Of a stretch of DNA of 64,000 nt, positions 4,934-55,272 are shown in pieces (the stretch's first letter is position 1; the number at the start of each line of letters is the position of its first letter). The notes beneath the pieces were generated by a model that searched no databases, was not told the DNA's origin, and saw only the letters and a list, made by a program, of their open reading frames with translations. Both the position numbers and the translations under genes were made by a program. The DNA comes from an uncultured Opitutaceae bacterium (GTDB lineage Bacteria > Verrucomicrobiota > Verrucomicrobiia > Opitutales > Opitutaceae). The stretch covers positions 12,167 through 76,166 of the forward strand of contig CAZDZL010000004.1 of assembly GCA_964509885.1 (NCBI GenBank), in the 5' to 3' direction.

Positions 4934-6982
4934 TCAGAAATCGTGAATCACCTTCGGAGGAAGCGCGGCTCGCAATGCATTCAGAATTGCCAGCACGTCG
5001 ATGATCTCCTGCGCGATGGCGCCGCTTACGGGATTCAGGTGCCCCGTCGCCGCGAAGCCCATGCCGAAGATACTCAGGGCCATGCCGCCCACCGCGCTCT
5101 GCAGCGCGATAACGCGCATGCGCCGGCTGATGTGCATGACCTCATCCACCTTGGTGAGTGAGTTGTCCATGATGACGATGCCCGCCGCCTCGGACGTCAC
5201 GTCGCTGTTCTGGCCGATGGCCACCCCGACCGTGGCGGCCATCATCGCGGGTGCGTCGTTTATCCCGTCGCCAACGTAAAGGGTCTTCGCCTTGGCGGTC
5301 TCCTCGCGAACAATGGCAAGCTTCTGCTCCGGGCTCCTCTCCGCATATATCTCGGTGATGCCCACCTGCTCGGCAAGATACCGCACCTCCGACTCACGGT
5401 CGCCCGAGACCAGCATGACGCGCGCAAAGTGGTGCTTCGGGCCCAAATGGCCCACGAATGCGCGGCTGTCGCCGCGTGGGGCGTCCCGGAATCGCAGCAA
5501 CGCGGCGTACCTGCCGTCGATCGCCACGACGCATTCGAGTCCACCGGCAACCGGCGGGATCTTCTCGCTACCCGGAACAGCTTGTGCCGCCAGTTTGCCC
5601 CGACTCGTCACCTGCACGGATCGGCCGGCAACTGTCCCGCGCAGGCCTTGACCCGGGGCCTCGCTCACCTCGGCGGCCTCAGGAATCTCGATGCCAGCCT
5701 CGCTCGCCGCGGCCAGGACCGCCCTGGCCAGCGGGTGCCTGGAGTAGCGCTCCAGTCCCGCAACGAGGGTCAGCATCTCTCGCTGCCCGATGCCTGGGGC
5801 GAGGATCTGGTCGGTCAGCCTCGGTTCCCCGTAGGTCAGCGTCCCGGTCTTGTCGAAGATGGCGGTGCGGCATCCGGCGATCTGCTCGATCACCGCCGAG
5901 CTTTTGACAATGATCGCTCGGCGCGCGCAGAGGGAGATGGATCCAATAATGGCTATGGGGATAGCGAGCAGCAGCGGGCACGGCGTGGCGATCACGAGCA
6001 CGGCGAGGAATCGGGTTGAGTCGCCGCTGAACGCCCAGGCAAGCGAGGCGCCCACAAGGGCCACCGGCGTGTAGATCGCGCCAAGCTGGTCACCGAGCCT
6101 CCTCAGCCTGGGCCGCTTGCTCTGCGACTCGCGCATCACCTCCATGATCCTTGCGTAGCGCGAGTCGGCCGCGAGATGCGTCGCGCGTATCGTAAGGGCC
6201 GACTCTCCGTTGATGGCACCCGAGATCACGGCCGATCCGCTTGTCTTCGTTATCTGGAACGGCTCGCCCGTCAGATAGGATTCATCCATCGTTCCATGGC
6301 CCTCGATGACCACGCCATCGACCGGGCATATCTCATGCGGGTATACCGCGATCATGTCGTCCAGGGCGATCTCCTGCAACGCGATGTCTGCGATTGCAGG
6401 TCCCTGTTTTCGGTGGGCTACCGAAGGCATCCTCTTGGCCAGGGCCGCCAAGGCCGACGAGGCCCTGCGCAACGCAAAGCTCTCGAGAGCCTCCCCTCCG
6501 GAGAGCATCAGGACGATGATCGAGCCCGCGAGATACTCGCCCAGCACGAGCGAGGTGACGATCGAGATGCCGCCGAGAAGGTCGGAGCCGAACTCCCGCC
6601 TCAGGACCCTTTTCGACAGGTCATAGATAAGGGGGATCCCCCCGATGACGAGAGTGGCGAGCAGAGGCAATCGGCACAGGCGCGGTGGCGCCTGGAACCC
6701 GAAGCGGAGCATCAAATAGGCGAGGATCCCGCCGGCGGAGATAGCCGCAATGACCGTCGTTCGGCGCTGCCAGAGGGCGCCCATCCAAGCCCAGGAGGTG
6801 CCTGTCAGGTTCCCTTGGCTCGGATCGCTTGGCGGGGTCTTGCGAGGTTCGGCTGAAGCTGCAGGCGTCATTGAAGTCTGGGGAAGGATAGCATGTTTCA
6901 CTCGCCCCGTTAGACCACTTGTTGCCAAAAGAGATGCATTGCTTGGCCGCCACCCATGCGGTGGCGGGACTGCAGCATCCAT
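4934..6982 (-). CDS. heavy-metal translocating P1B-type ATPase with a TPCP transmembrane motif and no N-terminal metal-binding domain
   Basis: DKTGTLT phosphorylation site, GDGINDAPA hinge, TGEP actuator motif, and [13 protein letters not shown] in the TM4-equivalent helix. No CxxC HMA domain. An alternative start is the Met at 6871. Confidence 0.9.
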
Positions 6983-7001: not shown

Positions 7002-7700
7002 CTATCCCTTACCTTGGGCCAGCTCGCCCGCGTAGAATTCCTGCGCAGTCCGCAGCAGTTGCGCCTCGGTGAGGTGGTGCTGGTCCACGACTATGGATCC
7101 GATCACCCTCCGGGATATCTCCGGATGCTTGGAGTCGAGCCATTTGGTGAATTCGCCCATCTCGCTACCGGTTCCCTTTCCGCTGCCCACAACGAGGATA
7201 GCCCCATTCCTTCCCAGCACTTCGGCGACCGGCCCGAAGAAACTGTTCGGGTCGGGTCTCTCGCGACCCCGGGCGAAGTCCTTCGAGTTGTGCGCGTGAC
7301 GGAAGTGGTCCTCTGGCTTGTGCGGCATTATCCGCGAGGGAACGGACCCGTGCATCACGGAACGGAATACCCGGGCCTCGTGGTGGTTGATAACCACCAG
7401 CCAGTGGGCCTCCTTCTCTGCGGCATCGGCCAAGGGCGCCTCGGAACCCTCGAGGAAATGCCTGAGCTCCATCAGGCGCTCCACATCCACGGTCTCGCCC
7501 GGCTGGTGGCCCCGGATGACAAGGACGTTGCCATTGCGGCCAAATCTCAGGCATCCGTTCGGCTCCTCCACGACCGTTCCAAGCCGCTTGAGAAGTGCTC
7601 GGGTCTCCCGCCAGCCCAGGTTGTGCGAGATGGGGTGGCAAAAAATCTTTCGATAGCTGCGCAGATGTGCGCCGCTCAGTTCTGTTTCCATGGGTGACAT
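7002..7700 (-). CDS. uncharacterised two-domain protein (copy 1): HicA-like N-terminal region plus host-attachment/eRF1-like C-terminal region
   Basis: 232-aa ORF with GC-rich third positions. By-eye alignment to the ORF at 53618-54304 shows roughly half or more of residues identical. Shared blocks include HPxSHNLxWR, [29 protein letters not shown], GKGTxSEM and HHL(T/S)EAQLL. Confidence 0.8.
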
Positions 7701-7731: not shown

Positions 7732-8022
7732 CTAGGCTGCGAACCCGAACCGGAACCGCTCCTCCTCCGGCCTGATGTTGAGTGTGACGCAGATCATCCG
7801 GGAAGCGGCTCCGGAGGCCGCCACCTTCACCATCCGGTCAAAGTCCGCCTTCGGGAGATCCGCCCCCTCGCGTCGGATCGCGTGGAGACCGAATCCGCGC
7901 TCCAGGAGGAGCTGGAGGAACTCCTCGCAGGCAACGGGGTCATCCGTCACGTACTGGTGCTTCTCGGGCTGCGAATGCTTCCGGAGCTGCAGGCTGTATT
8001 CGATGGAGTATTTCTTGAGCAT
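7732..8022 (-). CDS. hypothetical 96-aa protein
   Basis: First gene of the minus-strand operon, 31 nt upstream of 7700. Coding-like third-position GC. No recognisable motif. Confidence 0.55.
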   Translation of the reverse strand: MLKKYSIEYSLQLRKHSQPEKHQYVTDDPVACEEFLQLLLERGFGLHAIRREGADLPKADFDRMVKVAASGAASRMICVTLNIRPEEERFRFGFAA

Positions 8023-8068
8023 GGTGGTGTCCTCTGGTTGTTAGACCGGGGAGGGCGCCCCCTTTGGA

Positions 8069-9364
8069 ATGTCCTCTCCCGTCGGGCACAATCTAGCGCA
8101 ACCGGCTCCTGCTCGCTGGGCACTTCTTGGCGTTTCCCTCCCGGATCTTGCCAATTGGTTTCGGCCTGCCCCGAGGGCGCGCGACATGACGGATCGCCTC
8201 CCCCGCCTCTCTCCCGTGGGGCCGAGGGGCCTTGCAGCGGGGCGCCTTAACGTTCATTGTCAGGCCCTGTTGCCCAACGAGGATTTCACGTCCCTGACCA
8301 AGAACGCGCTCATCGCCCGGCTCCGGGACCTGAAGCGGGAACGGCTGGTGACGAACAAGGAGCTACGCGACGTAAAGGCGGCGCTCGACCAGCACTCAAT
8401 CGTGGCCATAACCGATGCGTCGGGGAAGATAACCCACGTCAACGACAAGTTCTGCGCGATCTCGAAGTATTCGAGGGACGAGCTTCTCGGGAAGGACCAC
8501 CGCATCATCAACTCCCACCACCATCCGAAGGAGTTCTTCCGGAACCTTTGGTCCACCATCGGCCGAGGCGAGGTCTGGTGCGGGGAGCTCAGGAACCGGG
8601 CAAAGGACGGCTCGATCTACTGGGTGGACACGACCATATTTCCCTTCGTCAACGAGTCGGGCAAGCCCGTCAAGTACGTGGCCATCCGGACCGACATAAC
8701 GAAGCGGAAGGCGGACGACGAGGAGCACCTGAGGCTCGAGGCCGAGCTTCTCGCGTCCAGCGAAAGGGAAAGGCTCAGCATAGGCTCGGACCTCCATGAC
8801 GGCCTCGGACAGCAGCTGACGGCCGTCGAGTTCATGTGCGCCGCGCTTAGGGAGGACATCGCGCAGAGGCATCCCGAGCTTGCCAGGCGCGTCGGGCAGG
8901 TCGGCGCCAGGCTCAGGGAAGCCGTCGCGTTGACGCGAAACCTCTCGCGAGGGCTGGTGCCCGTTGGCACCGGCCCGGACGCCCTCCAGAACGGGCTCGC
9001 GGACCTTGCCGAGCGCACAAGCGAGATTGGCGGCGTCCTCTGCCGATTCGAGTGCCGCGGTCCGCTGCCGGCGCTCGACCCCTCGACCGCGGGCCATGTC
9101 TACAGGATCGCGCAGGAGGCGACGAACAACGCGGTGAAGCACGCCCGCGCCGGGAGGGTCGCCGTTCGCCTGGAAAAGAGGGACGGCAGCCTGATGCTGG
9201 AGGTCGCGGACAACGGCACCGGAATGGGCAAGCAGAACCTCGAACGACGGGGCCTTGGCCTCGGCCTTATGCGCCACCGTGCCAACGTGATCGGGGGCGA
9301 ACTCTCCATAGTCTCGGTTCCTGGCCAGGGCGTCACGGTGACATGCACGGTGCCGATCCGATGA
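8069..9364 (+). CDS. PAS-domain sensor histidine kinase (HisKA_3 / NarL-partner type)
   Basis: PAS core (IVAITDASGKITHVNDKFCAISKYSRDELLGKDHRII..). H-box SDLHDGLGQQLTA. HATPase N/G boxes (EATNNAVKHA, DNGTGM, GLGLMRHR). An alternative ATG is at 8186. Confidence 0.9.
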   Translation: MSSPVGHNLAQPAPARWALLGVSLPDLANWFRPAPRARDMTDRLPRLSPVGPRGLAAGRLNVHCQALLPNEDFTSLTKNALIARLRDLKRERLVTNKELRDVKAALDQHSIVAITDASGKITHVNDKFCAISKYSRDELLGKDHRIINSHHHPKEFFRNLWSTIGRGEVWCGELRNRAKDGSIYWVDTTIFPFVNESGKPVKYVAIRTDITKRKADDEEHLRLEAELLASSERERLSIGSDLHDGLGQQLTAVEFMCAALREDIAQRHPELARRVGQVGARLREAVALTRNLSRGLVPVGTGPDALQNGLADLAERTSEIGGVLCRFECRGPLPALDPSTAGHVYRIAQEATNNAVKHARAGRVAVRLEKRDGSLMLEVADNGTGMGKQNLERRGLGLGLMRHRANVIGGELSIVSVPGQGVTVTCTVPIR

Positions 9365-10074
9365 TGAAGAAGAAGGCAAAGGTGCCCTCCGCGCCTTCCC
9401 GGCCCGCCCCGGTCCGCCGGCGCATAGCGATCGTGGACGACCATCCCTTCATGAGGGCGGGGCTCGCACAGCTCATAGGCCGCCAGCCCGACATGGAGGT
9501 GGCCGGGGAGGCCGGTGACCCCGCGGAGGCCATCAAGGCCTTCGCAAGATGGGCGCCTGACCTCGTGCTCGCCGACATGACCATGCCGGGAAGAAGCGGC
9601 CTCGAGTTCATCAGGGACATCCTCGCCGTGTATCCCGGCATGGCCGTGCTCGTGTTCTCGATGCATGACGAGGCGATCTACGCCGAGCGCGTCCTGCGCG
9701 CGGGGGGTCGCGGCTACATCATGAAGGAGTCGGGCGGCGAGAACCTCCTCGCTGCCATCCGCCAGGTGCTGCGCGGGGAGGTCTACGTGAGCGAGCGGAT
9801 GTCACTGCGGATCCTGGAGACATTCTCGGGGCGGCTCCCGAGGGGCTCGAGCTCCCCGATCGGCAAGCTCACGGACCGCGAGTTCGAGGTCTTCCAGCTG
9901 ATCGGCGCCGGCAGGAGCACAAAGGAAATCGGCGTCCTCCTGGGCCTGAGCAGCAAGACCGTCGACGTCCACAGGGGCCACATAAGGGAGAAGCTCGGGC
10001 TCAAGGACACGACCGCGCTGGTGCGGCACGCGGTGCGCTGGGTCGAGGCCGAGGGCGGGCCGGGCAAATCCTAG
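9361..10074 (+). CDS. NarL/FixJ (LuxR-type HTH) response regulator
   Basis: The ATG overlaps the kinase stop (ATGA). Receiver motifs IAIVDDHP .. LVLADMTMPG. C-terminal LuxR HTH (LTDREFEVFQLIGAGRSTKEIGVLLGLSSKTVDVHR). Confidence 0.95.
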   Translation: MMKKKAKVPSAPSRPAPVRRRIAIVDDHPFMRAGLAQLIGRQPDMEVAGEAGDPAEAIKAFARWAPDLVLADMTMPGRSGLEFIRDILAVYPGMAVLVFSMHDEAIYAERVLRAGGRGYIMKESGGENLLAAIRQVLRGEVYVSERMSLRILETFSGRLPRGSSSPIGKLTDREFEVFQLIGAGRSTKEIGVLLGLSSKTVDVHRGHIREKLGLKDTTALVRHAVRWVEAEGGPGKS

Positions 10075-10689: not shown

Positions 10690-11265
10690 TTATTCCTCGG
10701 GTCCGCAGCGACCGATTTTTGGGCGTTCTGCGCGAAAGGGGAGCTGCGGGTTCACGTCGACGCGGTCCAGCCAGGAATCCGCCATCTCGCGCGTCATCGG
10801 GAAGAACTCCAGTGTGCCCCCCTCCCCGTTGGCCGATGCCGCCGCCGAGGTCCCGTACCGACAGAGGGAGCAGAAGGTCGCCACTTCCCGGCTGGCGATG
10901 GAGCGGATGATGGCCTGGACCTCGGCGACCGCGGTCTGGCTCGCCTCGTCCGTGAGTCCCACGGCCTCCCCGAGCAAGCAAAGCACCGCCTCCTCGCAGG
11001 AGGGGAAATAGGCCAGGAGAGGATTGCGCCCGCACGCGCATGTCCCCCAGATCGCCTCCTGGGTCGGGACCGGCGCAAACGGATGCGTGCCGGGCAGAGC
11101 GCGCACCCTCCTGAAGACCTCATCGAGGGTGGACCCAAAGAGACGCTCGAGTATCTCGGGATCGGCAAGCGGGGAGTTCACCAGCCTTGAACGAAGGAGA
11201 GCGGCCCAGCGCGCCGAGATTTGGGCCTTGGAGCGCTGGAGGTACTGAAGGGGTGCGGGTTCCAC
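10690..11265 (-). CDS. hypothetical Cys-rich protein (RsbRD_N-like N-terminus)
   Basis: 191 aa, 22 nt upstream of the nitroreductase. The N-terminal pattern (QISARWAALLRS...) resembles RsbRD N-terminal domains from memory. Cys motifs are CxC, C-x5-C and CxxC. Confidence 0.6.
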   Translation of the reverse strand: MEPAPLQYLQRSKAQISARWAALLRSRLVNSPLADPEILERLFGSTLDEVFRRVRALPGTHPFAPVPTQEAIWGTCACGRNPLLAYFPSCEEAVLCLLGEAVGLTDEASQTAVAEVQAIIRSIASREVATFCSLCRYGTSAAASANGEGGTLEFFPMTREMADSWLDRVDVNPQLPFRAERPKIGRCGPEE

Positions 11266-49723: not shown

Positions 49724-50464
49724 TTAGCTCTTGACCGTCATGTCATTGACGACCGACTTCACGCCGCGCGTGTCCTGGGCCAGCTTGGTGACAAGCGACT
49801 TCTCGGCGTCGGAGGACGCGACACCCGTGATGCTGACGACCGCGTTCTCGGTGACGACCTTGGTCGAGAGGGCGCTCGTCGAGCGGTGGCTCAGCAGCGC
49901 GTACTTGACCTGGCTGGTGATCGAGGCGTCGTCCATGTCGTCGCCGATCGTGGTCGAGCCGGGCTCCGGGGCCACGATGACGAGCTCGTTCCTGACCGAC
50001 TTGACGTTGTCGATTTCCTTCGCGTAGACCTCGGTGAGGTCCTTCTGGGCGCGGTTCTGGACGGTGCCCGTTAGGGTGACGATGCCGTCCCTTACGTCCA
50101 CCTTGGTGGAGGTCGCGCTGACGTTGGCCTTGACCAGCAGCTGGCCGCGGACCTTCAGGGCGATCCACTCGTCCGAGTGCTCCTTGTACTCGGACTTGAC
50201 GACGATCTCATTGTCGACGCTGACGACGCCGGGGAGGTTCTCCACGGTGTCCTCGGCGAGGGCCTTGTCGTCGCGGTCGGCGACCGTGCCCGTCAGGGTG
50301 ACGACGCCGTCGTTCGACTTGACGGTGACGTGGTCGGAAAGGACCGTCTTGTAGTTATAGGAGGATTTGGCCGCGTCCTCGATCTTGCGATCGTTTGAGG
50401 AGGCGAAGAGCGCGACCGGGAAGGTCGCGGCGAGCAGGCATGCAATACGGACGTGTGTGTTCAT
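49724..50464 (-). CDS. secreted triple BON-domain protein (OsmY-like)
   Basis: Met at 50464 with a signal peptide. Three repeats of the V.V.V.DG.VTLTG.V......K..A......V.GV..V.N.. pattern. Confidence 0.85.
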   Translation of the reverse strand: MNTHVRIACLLAATFPVALFASSNDRKIEDAAKSSYNYKTVLSDHVTVKSNDGVVTLTGTVADRDDKALAEDTVENLPGVVSVDNEIVVKSEYKEHSDEWIALKVRGQLLVKANVSATSTKVDVRDGIVTLTGTVQNRAQKDLTEVYAKEIDNVKSVRNELVIVAPEPGSTTIGDDMDDASITSQVKYALLSHRSTSALSTKVVTENAVVSITGVASSDAEKSLVTKLAQDTRGVKSVVNDMTVKS

Positions 50465-50629
50465 TTGTTTTGTTTTTGGGGAGATGGGACCCCGGCCGGA
50501 AACGCCGTACGGGAGCTTCAATACCAAAGTGTCTCTGTCAGGCGGCGCTTCCCCCGGCCCTGCGGGCGCCGCGGGCGGCTTTCTCGCACCCTTGCGGGGC
50601 GGGGGCATGGGCGGGTGTCTGATGCGTTG

Positions 50630-50716
50630 CCATGGGGGGACTCTACAGGGAACGCGCCCGCGCCGCCATGGGGTGTAGGACCGATAGTAGTTCACCCCAT
50701 GGGACTTCACCCCATT
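50630..50716. promoter_or_regulatory. cluster of CCATGGGG / CCCCATGG motifs in the BON-sigma intergenic region
   Basis: CCATGGGG at 50630 and 50666. Reverse-oriented CCCCATGG at 50695. TTCACCCCAT is repeated directly at 50691 and 50706 (15-nt spacing). Confidence 0.3.
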
Positions 50717-50753
50717 TCAGTCCGCACCCATCGCGTGTACCTTCCACCTCGCA

Positions 50754-51500
50754 ATGGTCGCTTCCAACTCACAGCTAGGCTCACCTACAAAGACAGCGCC
50801 CGGGGGAAAGGGTCCCACCAATCGCTCCATAATCTCGCGGCAGGAGGCCGAGTACGACGCCAAGCTCGTGCGCCGCTTCAACGCGGGGGACGAGGAGGCC
50901 TTCGTCGAGATCATCTCCAGGTACCGCAGCAAGATGTTCTCCATCGCGCTCTGCCACCTGCGCAACCACTCCGACGCCGAGGAGATCACCCAGGACACGT
51001 TCATACGGGCCCACCGGGGCCTGGCGCGCTTCAGGGGCGACTCCTCCCTCGCGACATGGCTGCACCGCATCGCCTTCAACCTCTCGCGCAACCGCTTCAA
51101 GTACTACTACTGCCGGCGCCGGCACGCGATGCTGTCGCTTGACTGCGCGTTCAGCGACGACAACCAGGCCACCTTCTCGGACCTCATCGCGAGCGACGCC
51201 CCCAGCCCGGCCCGCGAGGCGGCCTCCGGCGAGTTCTCGGAGCTCGTCTCCGGGTGCATGGAGAAGCTCGGGTCGCGCCAGCGCGAGATCCTCATCCTGC
51301 GCAACGGCCTGAACAAGTCCTACGGTGAGATCGCCCGCTCTCTGAAGATCAGCATCGGCACCGTGAAGAGCCGCATCGGGCGCGCCCGCGAGAAGCTTCG
51401 CCAGCTCCTCTCCGAGGCCTACCCCGACCTGCCCGCGGACGCCTCCCCCTTCGACTGGTTTGAGCCGATCCGCTCGGCCGGCCGCATCGAGGTCGCCTGA
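50754..51500 (+). CDS. ECF-type RNA polymerase sigma-70 family factor
   Basis: Region 2 (AEEITQDTFIRAHRGLARFRGDSSLATWLHRIAFN) and region 4 HTH (SYGEIARSLKISIGTVKSRIGRAREKL). Confidence 0.85.
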   Translation: MVASNSQLGSPTKTAPGGKGPTNRSIISRQEAEYDAKLVRRFNAGDEEAFVEIISRYRSKMFSIALCHLRNHSDAEEITQDTFIRAHRGLARFRGDSSLATWLHRIAFNLSRNRFKYYYCRRRHAMLSLDCAFSDDNQATFSDLIASDAPSPAREAASGEFSELVSGCMEKLGSRQREILILRNGLNKSYGEIARSLKISIGTVKSRIGRAREKLRQLLSEAYPDLPADASPFDWFEPIRSAGRIEVA

Positions 51501-51554: not shown

Positions 51555-52232
51555 TCAGACGATCGTCACCTGGACGCTGCTCTCGATGATCCCCTGCGCG
51601 ATGGCGTAGCGGGTGAGGCCCGCCGTGTCGTGGATGTTCAGCTTGTCCATCAGGTGCTGCCTGTGCTTCTCGACCGTCTTGATGCTGATCTTCAGCCCGT
51701 CGGCCACCTGCTTGTTGGCGTGGCCCTCGGCGACAAGCTGGATGACCTCCAGCTCGCGCGACGTGAGGCCCGTGGCCTTCTTGATCATCAGGCCGCCGAT
51801 CTTGTCCGGCTTCTGGTAGTGGTCGCGCAGGCGCTTTGAGACCTGCGGGCTGTAAAACGCGTTGCCCGCCATGATCTCGTGGATCGCCTTCGCCAGGATC
51901 TGGGCGGACGTCTGCTTTATGAGGAAGCCGACCGCGCCGACGGCGATCACCCTGTCGATGTAGGCGTCGTCGCTGTGCGCCGATAGGATCAGCACCTTCG
52001 TCCCAGGCTTCTTCGCCAGAATCTGGCGCGTGGCCTCGAGGCCGTTGAGCAGCGGCATCGCGATGTCCATGACGACGACGTCGGGACTCAGCGACAGGGC
52101 CATGTCCACGGCCTCGCGCCCGTTGTGGGCCTCTCCCACGACGGCGATGCCGGCGTCGGCGGCGAGGAGGGCCCTGAGCCCCTCCCTGACAATGGTGTGG
52201 TCGTCTGCGAGAAGGGTCTTGATGGTTTTCAT
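51555..52232 (-). CDS. NarL/FixJ (LuxR-type HTH) response regulator
   Basis: Receiver (LLADDHTIVREGL.. VVVMDIAMPLLNG) plus LuxR HTH (LTSRELEVIQLVAEGHANKQVADGLKISIKTVEKHR). Confidence 0.95.
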   Translation of the reverse strand: MKTIKTLLADDHTIVREGLRALLAADAGIAVVGEAHNGREAVDMALSLSPDVVVMDIAMPLLNGLEATRQILAKKPGTKVLILSAHSDDAYIDRVIAVGAVGFLIKQTSAQILAKAIHEIMAGNAFYSPQVSKRLRDHYQKPDKIGGLMIKKATGLTSRELEVIQLVAEGHANKQVADGLKISIKTVEKHRQHLMDKLNIHDTAGLTRYAIAQGIIESSVQVTIV

Positions 52233-52246
52233 AATGGATTTGGGGC

Positions 52247-53371
52247 TTACTGGCGATTGAAGGGTATAGTGGCGAAAATCGTGGTGCCGCGGCCGGGCAT
52301 GGAATCGACCTGGAAGGTGCCGCCGACCATCTCGACGCGCTCGCGCATCCCGATGAGACCAAGGCGCTTGTTCTTCCTGGAGTCGAGTACCTTCGCGACG
52401 TCGAAGGACCTGCCGTTGTCCTTGATCTCCATGACGACGGCCTGGGGCAGCTCCTTGATTTCGACGCTCACCTTGCTCGCCTTCGCATGCTGCGAGATGT
52501 TGACGAGCGCGGCCTGCGCCACTCGGTAGAGCACCGTCCGCTTGTCGTTGCTCAGCCTCTCGACGCCGGCGAAGATCTTGAAGCCGACATGCAGCCCCGT
52601 CCTCGCGGTGAACGCATTCATGTAGGCGTGCAGGGCGGGAATGAGCCCCAGGTCGTCAAGGAGGGTCGGGCGCAGGTCCCGGGCGAACTGGTGGACGATG
52701 TTGACCGACTTTTCCACGAGGCGCTGCGTGTAGCTGATGTGCTTTGAGAAGCTCTCCTTGCTGACGCCGGACTCGATCTTGAGCGACGCGAGCTGGACGT
52801 TTATCCCCGTGAGCGTCTGGACGATCTCGTCATGGAGCTCGCGGCTGATCTCCTTGCGCTCCTCCTCCTGGGCGGAGAGCACCTGGTGGGAGAGGTGCCG
52901 CAGCCGCAGCTGCATCTGGCGGGCCTCCCTGAGGAGGACCTTGTGGTGCTTCTCGCTCAGCCGGAGCGAGCTATCCGCGGACTTCCTGTGGAGCACCTCG
53001 ACCTTCAGCCGCCTGTTGGAGGCGGCCAGCTCGTTGGTCCGCCGCAGGAGCGCCAGGTTTGAGAGCCTCAGCTCGGATATGCTCTCGAGCATCGCCCTGT
53101 GGGTCTTCTCGACGGGGGTGAGCACGTCGAGGAAGAAGACGCCCGCGCGCTTGACCGTCTGCGTCCGCATGGCCGCCGTGCACCCGGGGGGCATGAGCGT
53201 GATGAGCGAACGGCCGTGGATGTCGGCGAGGTCAAGCGTCTCCAGCCCCTCTGAAACCGCCCTGCGTCCCAGCGCCGCCGCCCCTGCCGAGGGGACCCGC
53301 CAGCCTCCGCCCAGGTGCCTGCGCAGGTGCCTGTGGTAGCTCCTTGAAAGGCTGAGCAGCTTTTTCTTCAA
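52247..53371 (-). CDS. cytoplasmic sensor histidine kinase (HisKA_3) with an RsbU_N-like N-terminus and a coiled coil
   Basis: No TM helices. H-box ISRELHDEIVQTLTG. HATPase motifs (NISQHA, DNGRSF, GLIGMRER). Confidence 0.9.
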   Translation of the reverse strand: MKKKLLSLSRSYHRHLRRHLGGGWRVPSAGAAALGRRAVSEGLETLDLADIHGRSLITLMPPGCTAAMRTQTVKRAGVFFLDVLTPVEKTHRAMLESISELRLSNLALLRRTNELAASNRRLKVEVLHRKSADSSLRLSEKHHKVLLREARQMQLRLRHLSHQVLSAQEEERKEISRELHDEIVQTLTGINVQLASLKIESGVSKESFSKHISYTQRLVEKSVNIVHQFARDLRPTLLDDLGLIPALHAYMNAFTARTGLHVGFKIFAGVERLSNDKRTVLYRVAQAALVNISQHAKASKVSVEIKELPQAVVMEIKDNGRSFDVAKVLDSRKNKRLGLIGMRERVEMVGGTFQVDSMPGRGTTIFATIPFNRQ

Positions 53372-53617
53372 GATGTGGTCGGTTCCGCGGGGATTTATCC
53401 GTCACGCGTCCCTGGGCCCGGCGGCTTGCGCGCTGCCGGGACACGATCCGAACCCCAATCCTCGAAAATATCAGGGGGCGCCGACCAGGTCGATGGGGTA
53501 AAACCCCACCCCTCCCCCGTCCCACGCGGGTGAACACCCCATTCCCACCCCCCAGCACCGCTGCTATTGTGGTCTGCCCGGCGGCCAAAGTCGCTGAGCC
53601 AACATCCCTTACACACC

Positions 53618-54304
53618 TTGAACCCCACCCACACCCTCAGCGGCTCGCACCTGCGTACCTACACGGCGATCCTCCAGCACCCCGCCTCGCACAACCTCGA
53701 GTGGCGCGACGTCCGGAGCCTCTTCAACCACATCGCCGACGTCGTCGAGCAGCCGAATGGCAACCTGAGGGTGACCCGCAACGGCCAGGTCCTCGTCATG
53801 CACACGCACAGGACGAAGGACGTGGCCGAGATCGAGGAGCTGATGGAGCTGCGGCACTTCATCGAGCGCTCCGAGGCCGCGGCCCCGGCGGCCGAGGCGG
53901 GGGCCGCCCAGTGGCTCGTCGTCATCAACCACCATGAGGCCCGGATCTACCGCTCGGAGATGGCCGGCACCCTTCCCGAGCGGATCATGCCCCACGAGCC
54001 GACGGATTTCTTCAGGCACGCCCACAACTCGAAGGACTTCTCGAGGGGCAAGGAGAAGCCGGACCCCAACACCTTCTTCGAGCCGGTCGCCGAGGCCCTC
54101 GCGGGGACCGCCAGGATCCTCGTCTTCGGCACGGGCAAGGGCACGAGCAGCGAGATGGAGCAGTTCGTCTCCTGGCTGGGACAGCACCATGCCGGCACGG
54201 CCGCCCGCATCATAGGCACGCAGGTGATCGATGAGCACCACCTGAGCGAGGCCCAGCTCCTGTCAAAGGCGCGCGGGTTCCACTCGGGACTCCCCGCGAC
54301 CTAG
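53618..54304 (+). CDS. uncharacterised two-domain protein (copy 2), paralog of 7002-7700
   Basis: The track ORF starts at GTG 53567. TTG 53618 gives an N-terminus colinear with copy 1 (..LSGSHLRTY vs ..LSGAHLRSY). The same conserved blocks run throughout. Confidence 0.8.
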   Translation: MNPTHTLSGSHLRTYTAILQHPASHNLEWRDVRSLFNHIADVVEQPNGNLRVTRNGQVLVMHTHRTKDVAEIEELMELRHFIERSEAAAPAAEAGAAQWLVVINHHEARIYRSEMAGTLPERIMPHEPTDFFRHAHNSKDFSRGKEKPDPNTFFEPVAEALAGTARILVFGTGKGTSSEMEQFVSWLGQHHAGTAARIIGTQVIDEHHLSEAQLLSKARGFHSGLPAT

Positions 54305-55272
54305 ACGCCCCTGCCCTCGGCGAAGCCGAACTCGCGGTAGTGGGCCTCCCCCGAGGCGAACAGGCCCGCGTCGACGGCCTCGCGCACGTCCGGATACCGC
54401 CCGAGGTAGGTCTCCTCCGGGAACGGGCACCCCGGGCCGAATGCGGACGGGTCCGCGGCCACCGGCTGGGCCAGGCGCCGCATCCAGTAGCCCTGGTGCA
54501 GGGGGACGATGTCCGCGCCCCGCTCCATGCAGTCGGACTCGGTGAAGTAATGGCAGACGAGCGAGGAACGGGTCCGCCGGGGGTCCGCGATCGGGCTGCC
54601 CCCGTGGACGAGGTCGGAGTGCCATATGAAGACGTCCCCCTTCCTCGCGAGGAACGTCCTCTCCTTCAGGCCGCGCAGCCGGATCTGGACGTCGATGTAG
54701 TCATACCAGTCCGCCCCCTCCTCGCGGGTCGCGTGGTGGGTGCCGTCGTTGAACGTGTACAGGGGGATCCTGTGGCTGCCCGGGACGTAGACGAGGGGCC
54801 CGGCGTCCGGGTGCACGTCCTCCAGCGCCACCCATGCGGCGATCAGCGCGTGGGGCGTGCGGGGCGTCATGTACAGCGAGTCGATGTGCTTCGGCTGGGA
54901 GCTGCCCTTCTCGAAGTTGATGCTGTTGCACAGCACGGCGGGCTCGCCGAGCAGGTCCCCGAGGATCGCCGTCAGCTCGGCGTCCAGCGCCAGCGCGCGG
55001 ACCTCGTCGCTCATGAGGTAGAGGTCGTTGAACTTGAAATGCCGGGTCTGCGGGTGGGAGGCCTGGGCCCAGAAGGTGCGCCTGCCCGTGTGGAGGCTGT
55101 CGACCACGACCTCGTTGGACCTCTCCTCGAGCAGATTGCGGACCGCGGACGTGGCCCGGTCGATCTCCTGGGCCGAGAAGAACCCCTCCAGGGCGGCATA
55201 GCCGTCCCGCTCGAACGTTTGGCCGGCGCCGGCGCCGCGGGCTGGGTGCATCGCAAGGTTCACGCCCTGCAT
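54301..55272 (-). CDS. phytanoyl-CoA dioxygenase (PhyH) family Fe(II)/2-oxoglutarate oxygenase
   Basis: N-terminal FERDGYAALEGFFS. H-x-D (KHIDS) and distal His (WHSDLVHG) pattern. Its 3-prime end overlaps the convergent gene by 4 nt. Confidence 0.8.
   Translation of the reverse strand: MQGVNLAMHPARGAGAGQTFERDGYAALEGFFSAQEIDRATSAVRNLLEERSNEVVVDSLHTGRRTFWAQASHPQTRHFKFNDLYLMSDEVRALALDAELTAILGDLLGEPAVLCNSINFEKGSSQPKHIDSLYMTPRTPHALIAAWVALEDVHPDAGPLVYVPGSHRIPLYTFNDGTHHATREEGADWYDYIDVQIRLRGLKERTFLARKGDVFIWHSDLVHGGSPIADPRRTRSSLVCHYFTESDCMERGADIVPLHQGYWMRRLAQPVAADPSAFGPGCPFPEETYLGRYPDVREAVDAGLFASGEAHYREFGFAEGRGV

What the first reader, a model, noticed from the sequence alone, without database searches (positions are those of the whole stretch)
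51555..54304. Second copy of the unknown protein, paired with a different cytoplasmic kinase/NarL regulator and an ECF sigma factor
ORF 53618-54304 aligns with 7002-7700 along its whole length, with many identical blocks. Here it is divergent from a TM-less HisKA_3 kinase (RsbU_N-like N-terminus plus coiled coil) and its LuxR-type regulator. An ECF sigma gene lies convergent to these. The sensor domains of the two kinases differ (PAS versus RsbU_N-like) while the partner protein is conserved. This looks like one output module plugged into two input pathways. The likely start is a TTG (53618), so automated annotation may mis-start it.
Basis: partly seen in the sequence, partly recalled or inferred. 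Interest (0 to 1): 0.65.

Follow-up and report, generated by a model that had tools for sequence, protein, structure and literature searches.

The report
Stress-regulon release-factor-like protein, two copies
The "unknown protein" present twice in this window belongs to a large unannotated bacterial family whose core is predicted to fold like the middle domain of the release and ribosome-rescue factors eRF1, Pelota and Balon. It looks like a stress-induced target gene of the neighbouring regulators rather than a signalling partner of the kinases.

Summary
ORF 53618-54304 (+) and ORF 7002-7700 (-) are paralogs, 56% identical over 225 aa (E 8e-96). Each lies divergent from a HisKA_3 kinase and NarL-type regulator pair, and an ECF sigma gene lies convergent to the pair at copy B.

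The protein family is large: 710 clusters at 50% identity, across Verrucomicrobiota, Planctomycetota, Armatimonadota and other phyla. It has no Pfam or NCBIfam model.

An AlphaFold model (pLDDT 82) shows two domains. The C-terminal RNase-H-fold domain matches Pelota, aRF1, eRF1, Dom34 and Balon (Foldseek E down to 4.6e-6). It lacks a GGQ motif. The small N-terminal domain has a HicA-like topology, but that match is not significant.

In 98 loci a HisKA_3 kinase lies within 2 kb in only 8. More frequent neighbours are DnaJ/CbpM-like, PRC-barrel, YflT, BON and ECF genes.

A conserved promoter-like motif, GnnnWWYACCCCAT-N22-TAnTnT, precedes copy B, the kinase operon, the ECF sigma gene and the BON gene. 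The four window sites are among 46 exact sites in the window and related loci, against 0-3 in shuffles of the loci.

The two kinase/regulator pairs were not co-duplicated with the paralogs. The TTG start at 53618 is supported.

Most likely function, which is inferred: a non-catalytic ribosome-binding stress factor.

The parts
53618..54304 (+). Copy B coding sequence (228 aa, TTG start, stop included). The N-terminal domain covers about aa 1-90. The aeRF1-type RNase-H-fold domain covers about aa 98-228.
   Evidence: Start codon.
7002..7700 (-). Copy A coding sequence (232 aa, or 229 aa from the second Met). It is 56% identical to copy B.
   Evidence: Purifying selection.
53529..53570 (+). Promoter-like motif before copy B. 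G at 53529, CACCCCAT at 53535-53542, TA at 53565-53566, invariant T at 53570. It lies 83 nt upstream of the TTG start.
53465..53506 (-). The same motif on the minus strand before the kinase and regulator operon (TACCCCAT at 53493-53500).
50702..50743 (+). The same motif before the ECF sigma gene (CACCCCAT at 50708-50715). The start codon follows 15 nt after the TA, so the transcript would have almost no leader.
50640..50681 (-). The same motif on the minus strand before the BON (OsmY-like) gene (CACCCCAT at 50668-50675).
52247..53371 (-). Cytoplasmic HisKA_3 and HATPase_c histidine kinase. The N-terminal 150 aa are weakly RsbU_N-like.
51555..52232 (-). NarL/LuxR-type response regulator (REC and GerE domains).
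50754..51500 (+). ECF-type sigma factor (248 aa). No anti-sigma gene lies next to it.
49724..50467 (-). Protein with three BON domains, OsmY-like. The probable start at 50467 gives 247 aa, the length called in the orthologues.
7732..8022 (-). Conserved 96-aa ORF directly upstream of copy A on the same strand. It has a conserved AGAGGA ribosome-binding site and no known family.
4934..6982 (-). Heavy-metal P1B-type ATPase, 19 nt downstream of copy A on the same strand. Its start codon is uncertain.
8069..9364 (+). PAS, HisKA_3 and HATPase_c kinase, divergent from the 96-aa ORF and copy A operon. Its start codon is uncertain.
9364..10074 (+). NarL-type response regulator paired with the PAS kinase.

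Best explanation
**What the protein is.** Both copies encode members of a large, unannotated two-domain family. The C-terminal 130 aa form the RNase-H-fold 'central' domain typical of the archaeo-eukaryotic release factor superfamily (eRF1, aRF1, Pelota/Dom34, bacterial Balon and the baeRF-1 families). The loop that carries GGQ in true release factors here reads RG-K/R. The protein is therefore predicted not to hydrolyse peptidyl-tRNA. The N-terminal 90 aa form a small helix, three-strand, helix module that also occurs as a separate gene.

**How it is controlled.** The genes are stress-regulon members, not signalling proteins. Copy B has a conserved promoter-like motif, GnnnWWYACCCCAT-N22-TAnTnT. 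The same motif precedes the divergent kinase and regulator operon, the ECF sigma gene and an OsmY-like BON gene. Whichever locus-encoded regulator reads this motif, the ECF sigma or the NarL-type regulator, would switch all four on together. Copy A sits in an operon with a conserved 96-aa ORF and a heavy-metal P-type ATPase, next to a different PAS kinase and NarL pair. Its upstream sequence is different.

**What it probably does (inferred, not shown).** By analogy with Dom34 and Balon, the protein binds ribosomes under stress as a non-catalytic factor that silences, protects or rescues them.
For: **Fold**
- The AF2 model has pLDDT 82.4.
- The 29 best Foldseek PDB hits are all Pelota, aRF1, eRF1, Dom34 or Balon, with E 4.6e-6 to 5e-3.
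- The isolated eRF1 middle domain 2hst matches over 137 columns with TMt 0.52.

**Sequence signal.** Scanning 126 family members one by one gives 11 sub-threshold hits, all to related Pfam models: baeRF_family12 x5, family10 x2, family2, family3 and Host_attach x2.

**Motifs**
- Strand 1 'LVVIDHHEAR' parallels the eRF1 strand 'FIVIDGSGAL'. The eRF1 sequence was checked against the PDB.
- The loop has no conserved Gln: Q follows G144 in 13 of 62 members, and the window copies have GK and GR.

**Neighbourhood in 98 loci.** DnaJ in 21, MerR/CbpM-like in 30, PRC-barrel in 24, YflT in 15, BON in 11, ECF in 11.

This resembles the stress-operon contexts reported for Balon: DnaJ, alternative sigma factors, OsmY (PMC10901736).

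**Shared motif**
- It is conserved in phylogenetic footprints.
- There are 4 exact sites in the window, arranged as two divergent pairs.
- There are 42 sites in 1.08 Mb of related loci, against 0-3 in shuffles.
- Positions not used in the search are also fixed: T at +35 in 46/46 and G at -6 in 43/46.
- Genes downstream of the sites: ECF 12, BON 9, the family gene 8, PRC-barrel 4, kinase operon 3.

**Selection.** Both copies are under purifying selection.
Against: - No sequence-level homology reaches significance. There is no Pfam or NCBIfam hit for the window copies, no PDB profile hit, and hhalign against the eRF1 middle domain finds nothing.
- The aeRF1 assignment therefore rests on a predicted structure plus weak hits.
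- The helix after the loop lacks the conserved Arg/Lys residues that Burroughs and Aravind take as the rRNA-binding signature of baeRF-1 (PMC6514570).
- The flanking aeRF1 domains that contact the decoding centre and the GTPase are absent.
- No HPF/RaiA gene was found near any of the loci (the BLAST search has low sensitivity).
- Nothing here shows ribosome binding.
- Many conserved His and Asp residues (D104, H105, H134, H136, D205, H208) could instead mark a metal or catalytic site.
Confidence: 0.5

Rival explanations
1. The protein would be an accessory or output protein that physically works with NarL-type two-component systems, for example as a connector binding the kinase or regulator, and has been plugged into two different sensor pathways.
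For: - Two diverged paralogs each sit beside an unrelated HisKA_3 kinase and NarL pair.
- The pairing is kept in orthologues.
- It recurs in other arrangements: L043, L058, L080, L093, L077, L036.
- A stand-alone N-domain gene lies beside homologues of the copy B kinase and regulator in L014.
Against: - About 90% of 98 family loci have no kinase or regulator within 2 kb.
- The commonest neighbours are chaperone and stress genes.
- The fold is that of a translation factor, not of a known signalling module.
- The shared promoter-like motif explains the adjacency as co-regulation.
Confidence: 0.15
2. The RNase-H-fold domain would be an enzyme, a metal-dependent nuclease or phosphohydrolase, that uses the conserved Asp and His residues. 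The HicA-like N-domain would guide it to RNA. That would make it a stress-induced RNA-processing or toxin-like protein.
For: - Conserved D104 and H105 sit at the end of strand 1, D205 and H208 after strand 5, and H134 and H136 in the loop. Asp residues at such positions are catalytic in RNase-H-fold nucleases (general knowledge).
- Weak HicA signals: 6hpb_A TMt 0.54, rmsd 3.2 A over 54 columns, E 0.65. HicA_toxin hits 1 of 64 members at E 0.021.
Against: - The best structural matches are non-nuclease aeRF1 and Pelota domains. RuvX and other nucleases rank far lower.
- There is no adjacent antitoxin-like gene.
- The HicA signals are not significant.
Confidence: 0.15
3. The protein would be a His-rich metal-binding protein, a metallochaperone or a sensor, that works with heavy-metal P-type ATPases.
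For: - Copy A lies 19 nt upstream of a P1B ATPase gene (TIGR01525, 492 bits).
- P-type ATPases lie within 6 kb in 11-12 of 98 loci.
- One of these is an ATPase 71% identical to the window's, beside a family member that is only 36% identical, in a Chthonomonadaceae genome (L011).
- Several His residues are conserved.
Against: - Most loci have no ATPase.
- There is no Cys or known metal-binding motif.
- Copy B and most relatives sit among chaperone and stress genes.
- In L107 the copy A orthologue lacks the ATPase.
Confidence: 0.08

Closest known systems
Balon, Rv2629 and Msmeg1130 (bacterial aeRF1-like ribosome hibernation factors; PMC10901736)
   Same: - The predicted core fold matches: Balon structures 8v9l, 8rd8 and 8v9j are among the Foldseek hits.
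- GGQ is absent.
- Several copies per genome sit in different loci.
- Genes lie in stress contexts with DnaJ, alternative sigma factors and OsmY-like proteins.
- From general knowledge, Rv2629 belongs to the regulon of DosR, a NarL-type regulator paired with HisKA_3 kinases.
   Different: - Balon has three domains and about 360 aa. The Balon study discarded homologues under 300 aa.
- This family has 228 aa, only the central domain and an unrelated N-terminal domain.
- It has no sequence-level similarity to Balon and no RaiA/HPF neighbour.
- Ribosome and EF-Tu binding are untested.
baeRF-1 clade families that keep only the RNase-H-fold core: Pfam Host_attach PF10116, baeRF_family12 and family10 (Burroughs and Aravind 2019, PMC6514570)
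   Same: - A bacterial aeRF1-type core without the flanking domains.
- A variable catalytic loop without Gln.
- A patchy distribution across phyla.
- Sub-threshold hits to exactly these models in 11 of 126 members.
   Different: - No member of the window reaches any model's threshold.
- The family has its own conserved N-terminal domain and its own loop motif, P-[HY]-D-P..R-H-x-H..G-[KQR]..P.
- It lacks the conserved basic residues in the helix after the loop.
- It has no HPF association.
Pelota/Dom34 (non-catalytic ribosome rescue factor)
   Same: - It is the best structural match: 3oby_B E 4.6e-6 and 2qi2.
- It has no GGQ.
- Its Gly-rich turn after strand 4 resembles 'FGxGxGxSS' here. The Pelota motif is recalled from memory and was not tested.
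   Different: Pelota has an Sm-like N-domain and an eRF1_3 C-domain, and it works with a GTPase. None of these is present here.
HicA toxin (N-terminal domain only)
   Same: - The same order of helix, three strands and helix.
- 6hpb_A superposes at 3.2 A over 54 columns with 26% identity.
- One member gives a weak HicA_toxin hit.
   Different: - The match is not significant (E 0.65).
- By eye, the catalytic His position of HicA is not conserved.
- There is no HicB partner.

Membership tests
aeRF1 superfamily / baeRF-1 clade | RNase-H-fold release-factor core domain (strand-strand-strand-helix-strand-helix-strand-helix) | tested here: met
   The AF2 model shows E98-103, E107-116, E119-125, H150-160, E166-171, H179-196, E198-203, H211-223. 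The top 29 Foldseek PDB hits are all aeRF1-superfamily chains. The eRF1 M domain 2hst gives TMt 0.52. This is a predicted structure, not an experimental one.
aeRF1 superfamily / baeRF-1 clade | Significant match to a curated sequence model (eRF1_2, baeRF_family1-12, Host_attach) | tested here: not met
   The window copies give no hit at E<=10. Among 126 members there are only sub-threshold hits (best 5.9e-4). The PDB profile search and hhalign against the eRF1 M domain are negative.
aeRF1 superfamily / baeRF-1 clade | GGQ or another conserved catalytic Gln in the loop after strand 3 (catalytic members only) | tested here: not met
   Position 145 after the conserved G144 is K in 13, Q in 13 and R in 7 of 62 members. 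Copy B has GK and copy A has GR. This is as in Dom34, Balon and most baeRF-1 families.
aeRF1 superfamily / baeRF-1 clade | Conserved Arg/Lys in the helix after the loop (proposed rRNA contact) | tested here: not met
   Helix 150-161 conserves F153, F/Y154, E155, A158 and L161. Positions 159 and 162 are only variably basic.
aeRF1 superfamily / baeRF-1 clade | Gene neighbourhood with HPF/RaiA | tested here: not met
   BLASTP with E. coli RaiA and HPF found nothing in the ORFs of about 100 loci. The queries came from memory and the search has low sensitivity.
Balon | Three-domain aeRF1 architecture (over 300 aa) | tested here: not met
   The protein has 228 aa and two domains. The N-domain model gives no aeRF1 hit.
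Balon | Location in stress-response operons | tested here: met
   Neighbours are DnaJ, CbpM-like, PRC-barrel, YflT, BON/OsmY-like and ECF sigma genes. Compare.
Balon | Binds the ribosomal A site and EF-Tu and inhibits translation | not testable with these tools
   This needs biochemistry or cryo-EM.
HicA toxin (N-terminal domain) | HicA / dsRBD-like fold with a catalytic His, paired with HicB | tested here: inconclusive
   Foldseek 6hpb_A gives E 0.65, TMt 0.54. HicA_toxin hits 1 of 64 members at E 0.021. No HicB-like neighbour was seen.
Dedicated two-component accessory protein | Consistent genomic linkage to the kinase or regulator across the family | tested here: not met
   A kinase lies within 2 kb in 8 of 98 loci and a regulator in 10 of 98. 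Linkage is conserved only inside the two sub-clades and in a few other loci.
ECF sigma regulon member | Promoter motif shared with the autoregulated promoter of the sigma gene | tested here: met
   The same motif precedes 12 of 12 neighbouring ECF genes at a fixed distance, and also copy B.
ECF sigma regulon member | Typical ECF geometry (-35 AAC, 16-17 nt, -10 CGT) | tested here: not met
   The -10-like part is TAnTnT, and the conserved block ends 22 nt upstream of it. This fits a primary-type -10 with an activator site centred near -41 at least as well.

The most novel reading that the evidence does not exclude
The family would be a previously unrecognised class of small ribosome-silencing or rescue factor, a 'mini-Balon'. 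It would consist of a HicA-like RNA-binding module fused to the bare aeRF1 core. It is widespread in Verrucomicrobiota, Planctomycetota and Armatimonadota. It would be switched on by a NarL-type two-component system and ECF sigma stress circuit through the GnnnWWYACCCCAT promoter element.
Probability: 0.3. Interest if true: 0.7.

Novelty: new variant of a known kind. Interest (0 to 1): 0.52.

Why it matters
**Translation under stress.** Bacterial relatives of eRF1 and Pelota were shown only in 2024 to act as ribosome hibernation factors (Balon). That study set aside all homologues shorter than 300 aa. This family has hundreds of sequence clusters across several poorly studied phyla and no database model. 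It would extend the theme to a minimal two-domain form. If it binds ribosomes, it would show that the central domain alone, helped by a different N-terminal module, is enough.

**A defined regulon.** The work also defines a sharply conserved promoter or operator motif. This motif ties together a sigma factor, a kinase and regulator pair, an OsmY-like protein, PRC-barrel proteins and this family in Opitutaceae. That gives a concrete, testable general-stress regulon for a group with almost no experimental genetics.

Tried and rejected
**Searches with no result**
- Pfam and NCBIfam scans of both copies and of the 96-aa ORF gave nothing.
- A PDB sequence-profile search with the 62-sequence alignment gave only noise, E >= 0.26.
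- hhalign of the family profile against the human eRF1 middle domain gave no alignment.
- Foldseek of the isolated N-domain gave no significant match.
- A PDB sequence search with the 96-aa ORF gave nothing.
- The sigma-70 consensus scan and inverted-repeat search upstream of copy B gave nothing useful. The conserved motif emerged only from alignment of orthologous intergenic regions.
- The search for related loci with the 62-sequence alignment failed because no stretch was conserved enough. It was repeated with 18 closer sequences.
- BLAST for RaiA/HPF, IbpA and UspA in all loci gave nothing.

**Ideas rejected or only partly kept**
- Co-duplication of the kinase and regulator pairs with the paralogs is rejected. 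Kinase cores are 26% identical and regulators 33-34%, against 56% for the copies.
- A GGQ-like 'GQ' motif as a family feature is rejected. It occurs in only 13 of 62 members.
- The idea that locus A mirrors the mycobacterial DosR regulon is kept only as an analogy. The parallels are a NarL regulator, a nitroreductase, a P-type ATPase and an aeRF1-like protein. The ATPase here is a heavy-metal P1B type.
- The motif found at copy B does not occur upstream of copy A.
Full report
**1. The observation**

The window holds two intact paralogs, copy B at 53618-54304 (+) and copy A at 7002-7700 (-). BLASTP gives 56% identity over 225 residues with one gap, E 8e-96.

Copy B is divergent from a gene with HisKA_3 and HATPase_c domains (52247-53371, -). 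That gene is followed by a REC and GerE regulator (51555-52232, -). An ECF-type sigma gene (50754-51500, +) converges on the regulator.

Copy A is divergent from a PAS, HisKA_3 and HATPase_c kinase (8069-9364, +) and its REC and GerE regulator (9364-10074, +).

The copy B kinase has no hydrophobic segment. Its first 150 residues hit RsbU_N only weakly, at E 0.054 and below the Pfam cut-off.

Third-codon-position differences exceed first and second positions by 2- to 6-fold against orthologues of both copies. Both genes are therefore under purifying selection.

**2. The start codon**

- Most homologues are 228 aa.
- In an alignment of five orthologous upstream regions, the start column is TTG in four and GTG in one. 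Conservation upstream of it is confined to promoter-like blocks.
- The alternative in-frame TTG at 53567 lies inside the conserved -10-like element.

The TTG at 53618 is therefore the start. About a fifth of the listed public homologues are called longer than 236 aa.

**3. What the protein is**

Neither copy matches any Pfam or NCBIfam model. The family is nevertheless large.
- 1140 clusters at 90% identity match at E <= 1e-3.
- 710 representatives at 50% identity match, all without names.
- 199 species-representative genomes matched one peptide pattern.
- The family spans Verrucomicrobiota, Planctomycetota, Armatimonadota, and some Chloroflexota, Actinomycetota and Proteobacteria.

An AlphaFold2 model built on 62 diverse members has mean pLDDT 82 and shows two domains.

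*C-terminal domain (about 98-228).* It has the order strand-strand-strand-helix-strand-helix-strand-helix.
- The 29 best Foldseek PDB matches are all Pelota, aRF1, eRF1, Dom34 or Balon, E 4.6e-6 to 5e-3.
- The isolated eRF1 middle domain matches over 137 columns, TMt 0.52.

Sequence evidence is weak but points the same way. Scanning 126 members one by one gives 11 sub-threshold hits: baeRF_family12 (5), family10 (2), family2, family3 and Host_attach (2). These related models make up a tiny fraction of 24,736, so this concentration is unlikely to be noise.

A PDB profile search and hhalign against the eRF1 middle domain were negative. The eRF1 sequence was confirmed against the PDB.

The loop that holds GGQ in release factors carries P125, [H/Y]126, D127, P128, R133, H134, H136, G144 and P148. 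After G144 come K, Q or R in 13, 13 and 7 of 62 members. The window copies read GK and GR. The protein is therefore predicted to be non-catalytic as a peptidyl-tRNA hydrolase, like Dom34, Balon and most baeRF-1 families (PMC6514570).

*N-terminal domain (about 1-90).* It is a helix, helix, three-strand, helix module.
- Modelled alone (pLDDT 78) it has no significant structural match.
- The most compact superposition is with HicA: 3.2 A over 54 columns, E 0.65.
- One member gives a weak HicA_toxin hit.
- In L014 the domain exists as a separate gene.

**4. Genomic context across the family**

I called ORFs in 98 loci from different species, clustered them and named the recurrent clusters with Pfam.

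| Neighbour (within the fetched flanks, usually 6 kb) | Loci of 98 |
|---|---|
| MerR/CbpM-like | 30 |
| PRC-barrel | 24 |
| DnaJ/CbpA-like | 21 |
| Acidic protein, no family | 16 |
| YflT | 15 |
| MpsC (planctomycetes) | 12 |
| P-type ATPase | 11-12 |
| ECF sigma | 11 |
| BON | 11 |
| Class I aldolase | 10 |
| Acetate kinase | 8 |
| RpiB | 8 |

The DnaJ and CbpM-like genes are mostly downstream on the same strand.

HisKA_3 kinases lie within 2 kb in 8 loci and NarL-type regulators in 10. Both lie within 3 kb in 6.

The family is thus embedded in general-stress and chaperone neighbourhoods. These are very like the contexts reported for Balon. A two-component system is an occasional neighbour.

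**5. The pairing with kinases is nevertheless not an accident of one genome**

- Copy B orthologues (72-77% identical) keep the whole order NHL, BON, ECF, regulator, kinase, copy B, PhyH, NIPSNAP in four other contigs.
- Kinases sharing the copy B kinase's N-terminal domain (35-58% identity) flank family genes in L043 (twice) and L058. Kinases 50-56% identical to its DHp-catalytic part flank family genes in L080 and L014. The arrangements differ from the window's.
- Copy A orthologues (83-86%) keep nitroreductase, regulator, PAS kinase, 96-aa ORF and copy A.
- PAS kinases 66-69% identical in the sensor region lie within about 4 kb of family genes in L093, L077 and L036.
- The two kinases share only 26% identity in the catalytic core and the two regulators 33-34%, against 56% for the copies. 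The pairs were recruited separately, not co-duplicated.

**6. A shared regulatory motif**

Aligning the kinase to copy B intergenic region of five orthologous loci shows conserved blocks. The BON to ECF intergenic region shows the same blocks.

- YACCCCAT occurs 10 times in the window (2.7 expected, maximum 6 in shuffles). Five of these lie in the two intergenic regions.
- With a TA required 30 nt after the Y, exactly four exact sites remain. They form two divergent pairs, before copy B, the kinase operon, the ECF gene and the BON gene.
- The same pattern occurs 42 times in 1.08 Mb of related loci, against 0-3 in shuffles.
- In the 46 sites, positions that were not part of the search are also fixed: G at -6 (43/46), A/T at -2 and -1, and T at +35 (46/46). 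This gives GnnnWWYACCCCAT-N22-TAnTnT.
- Genes downstream of the sites: ECF sigma genes 12 (always with the start codon 11-18 nt after the TA), BON genes 9, the family gene 8 (four of them outside the copy B synteny group), PRC-barrel genes 4 and the kinase operon 3.

This defines a co-regulated set.

Which protein reads the motif cannot be settled here.
- Its presence before every neighbouring ECF gene fits sigma autoregulation.
- TAnTnT fits the TAnnnT pattern of primary-type sigma factors. The conserved block is centred about 41 nt upstream of a start site assumed 7 nt after the last T. ACCCCAT also resembles NarL heptamers. The heptamer comparison and the assumed start site rest on general knowledge, not on a test.
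- So the NarL-type regulator acting as an activator is at least as good a candidate.

Copy A has no such motif. The region upstream of its 96-aa ORF partner carries a different conserved block and a conserved AGAGGA ribosome-binding site.

**7. Mechanism**

*Shown*
- Paralogy.
- The predicted fold and the absence of GGQ.
- The stress-gene neighbourhood.
- The shared conserved motif.
- Conservation of each paralog's own locus.

*Inferred*
- The genes are transcriptional targets of the locus-encoded regulators.
- The protein acts on ribosomes as a non-catalytic silencing, protecting or rescue factor, in the manner of Dom34 and Balon.

*Points against the ribosome role*
- The flanking aeRF1 domains are missing.
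- The basic helix residues are missing.
- There is no HPF neighbour.

*Rivals*
- A physical two-component accessory protein.
- An RNase-H-fold enzyme using the conserved Asp and His residues.
- A metal-related partner of P1B ATPases.

**8. Comparison with known systems and novelty**

The closest known things are Balon/Rv2629 and the 'core-only' baeRF-1 families, including Host_attach. This family works like them in fold and context. It fails their sequence models, has a different N-terminal domain and a loop motif of its own, and lacks the HPF link.

I file it as a new variant within the aeRF1 superfamily, not as a member of any curated family. No paper in the searchable library mentions it.

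Noticed in passing
window 7732-8022 (-); also L105 2738-3028, L107 3731-4021, L106 4586-4876, and next to family genes in L077, L079 and L093: A conserved 96-aa ORF with no family or PDB match always sits directly beside members of the copy A sub-clade (57 bp or less in the species-representative loci). It has a conserved AGAGGA ribosome-binding site. It is the most stable partner of copy A, more stable than the kinase or the ATPase.
   Followed up: partly
window 4934-6982 (-) and L011 1130-3019: The heavy-metal P1B ATPase downstream of copy A is 71% identical to an ATPase in a Chthonomonadaceae (Armatimonadota) genome. That ATPase also lies next to a family member, but the member is only about 36% identical. 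This suggests the ATPase moved horizontally and became linked to the family independently.
   Followed up: partly
window about 50467-50640 (minus-strand leader of the BON gene); alignment A5 columns 100-200: The roughly 170-nt region between the BON promoter-like motif and the probable BON start is highly conserved in five genomes. It includes a CCATG at a fixed distance (about 12 nt) after the TA of the motif. It could be a leader RNA element or a small upstream ORF.
   Followed up: no
L014 8001-8261: This is a stand-alone gene for the N-terminal domain only (about 87 aa, with a stop right after the domain). It lies beside homologues of the copy B kinase (56%) and regulator (61%) in a Methylacidiphilales genome. 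Similar N-only matches occur in L015, L016, L021 and L022.
   Followed up: partly
family members P0121-P0270 (alignment A6): Five of 64 further family members carry a DUF2934 domain (best E 2.2e-8). This indicates an occasional fusion.
   Followed up: no
window 8023-8190 (reverse strand); alignment A7: Upstream of the 96-aa ORF there is a conserved block, GAATTGGCAAGAT ... GCCAAGAAGTGCCCAGC. It is shared with L105 and L107 and with the more distant L106. It is unlike the copy B motif and may be the operator or promoter of the copy A operon.
   Followed up: no
window 54301-54304: The stop codon of copy B overlaps the stop codon of the convergent PhyH-family dioxygenase gene (54301-55272, -) by 4 nt. 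The same tail-to-tail overlap is kept in L102, L103 and L104.
   Followed up: no
window 10690-11265 (-): A 191-aa ORF next to the nitroreductase gene has no Pfam match.
   Followed up: no
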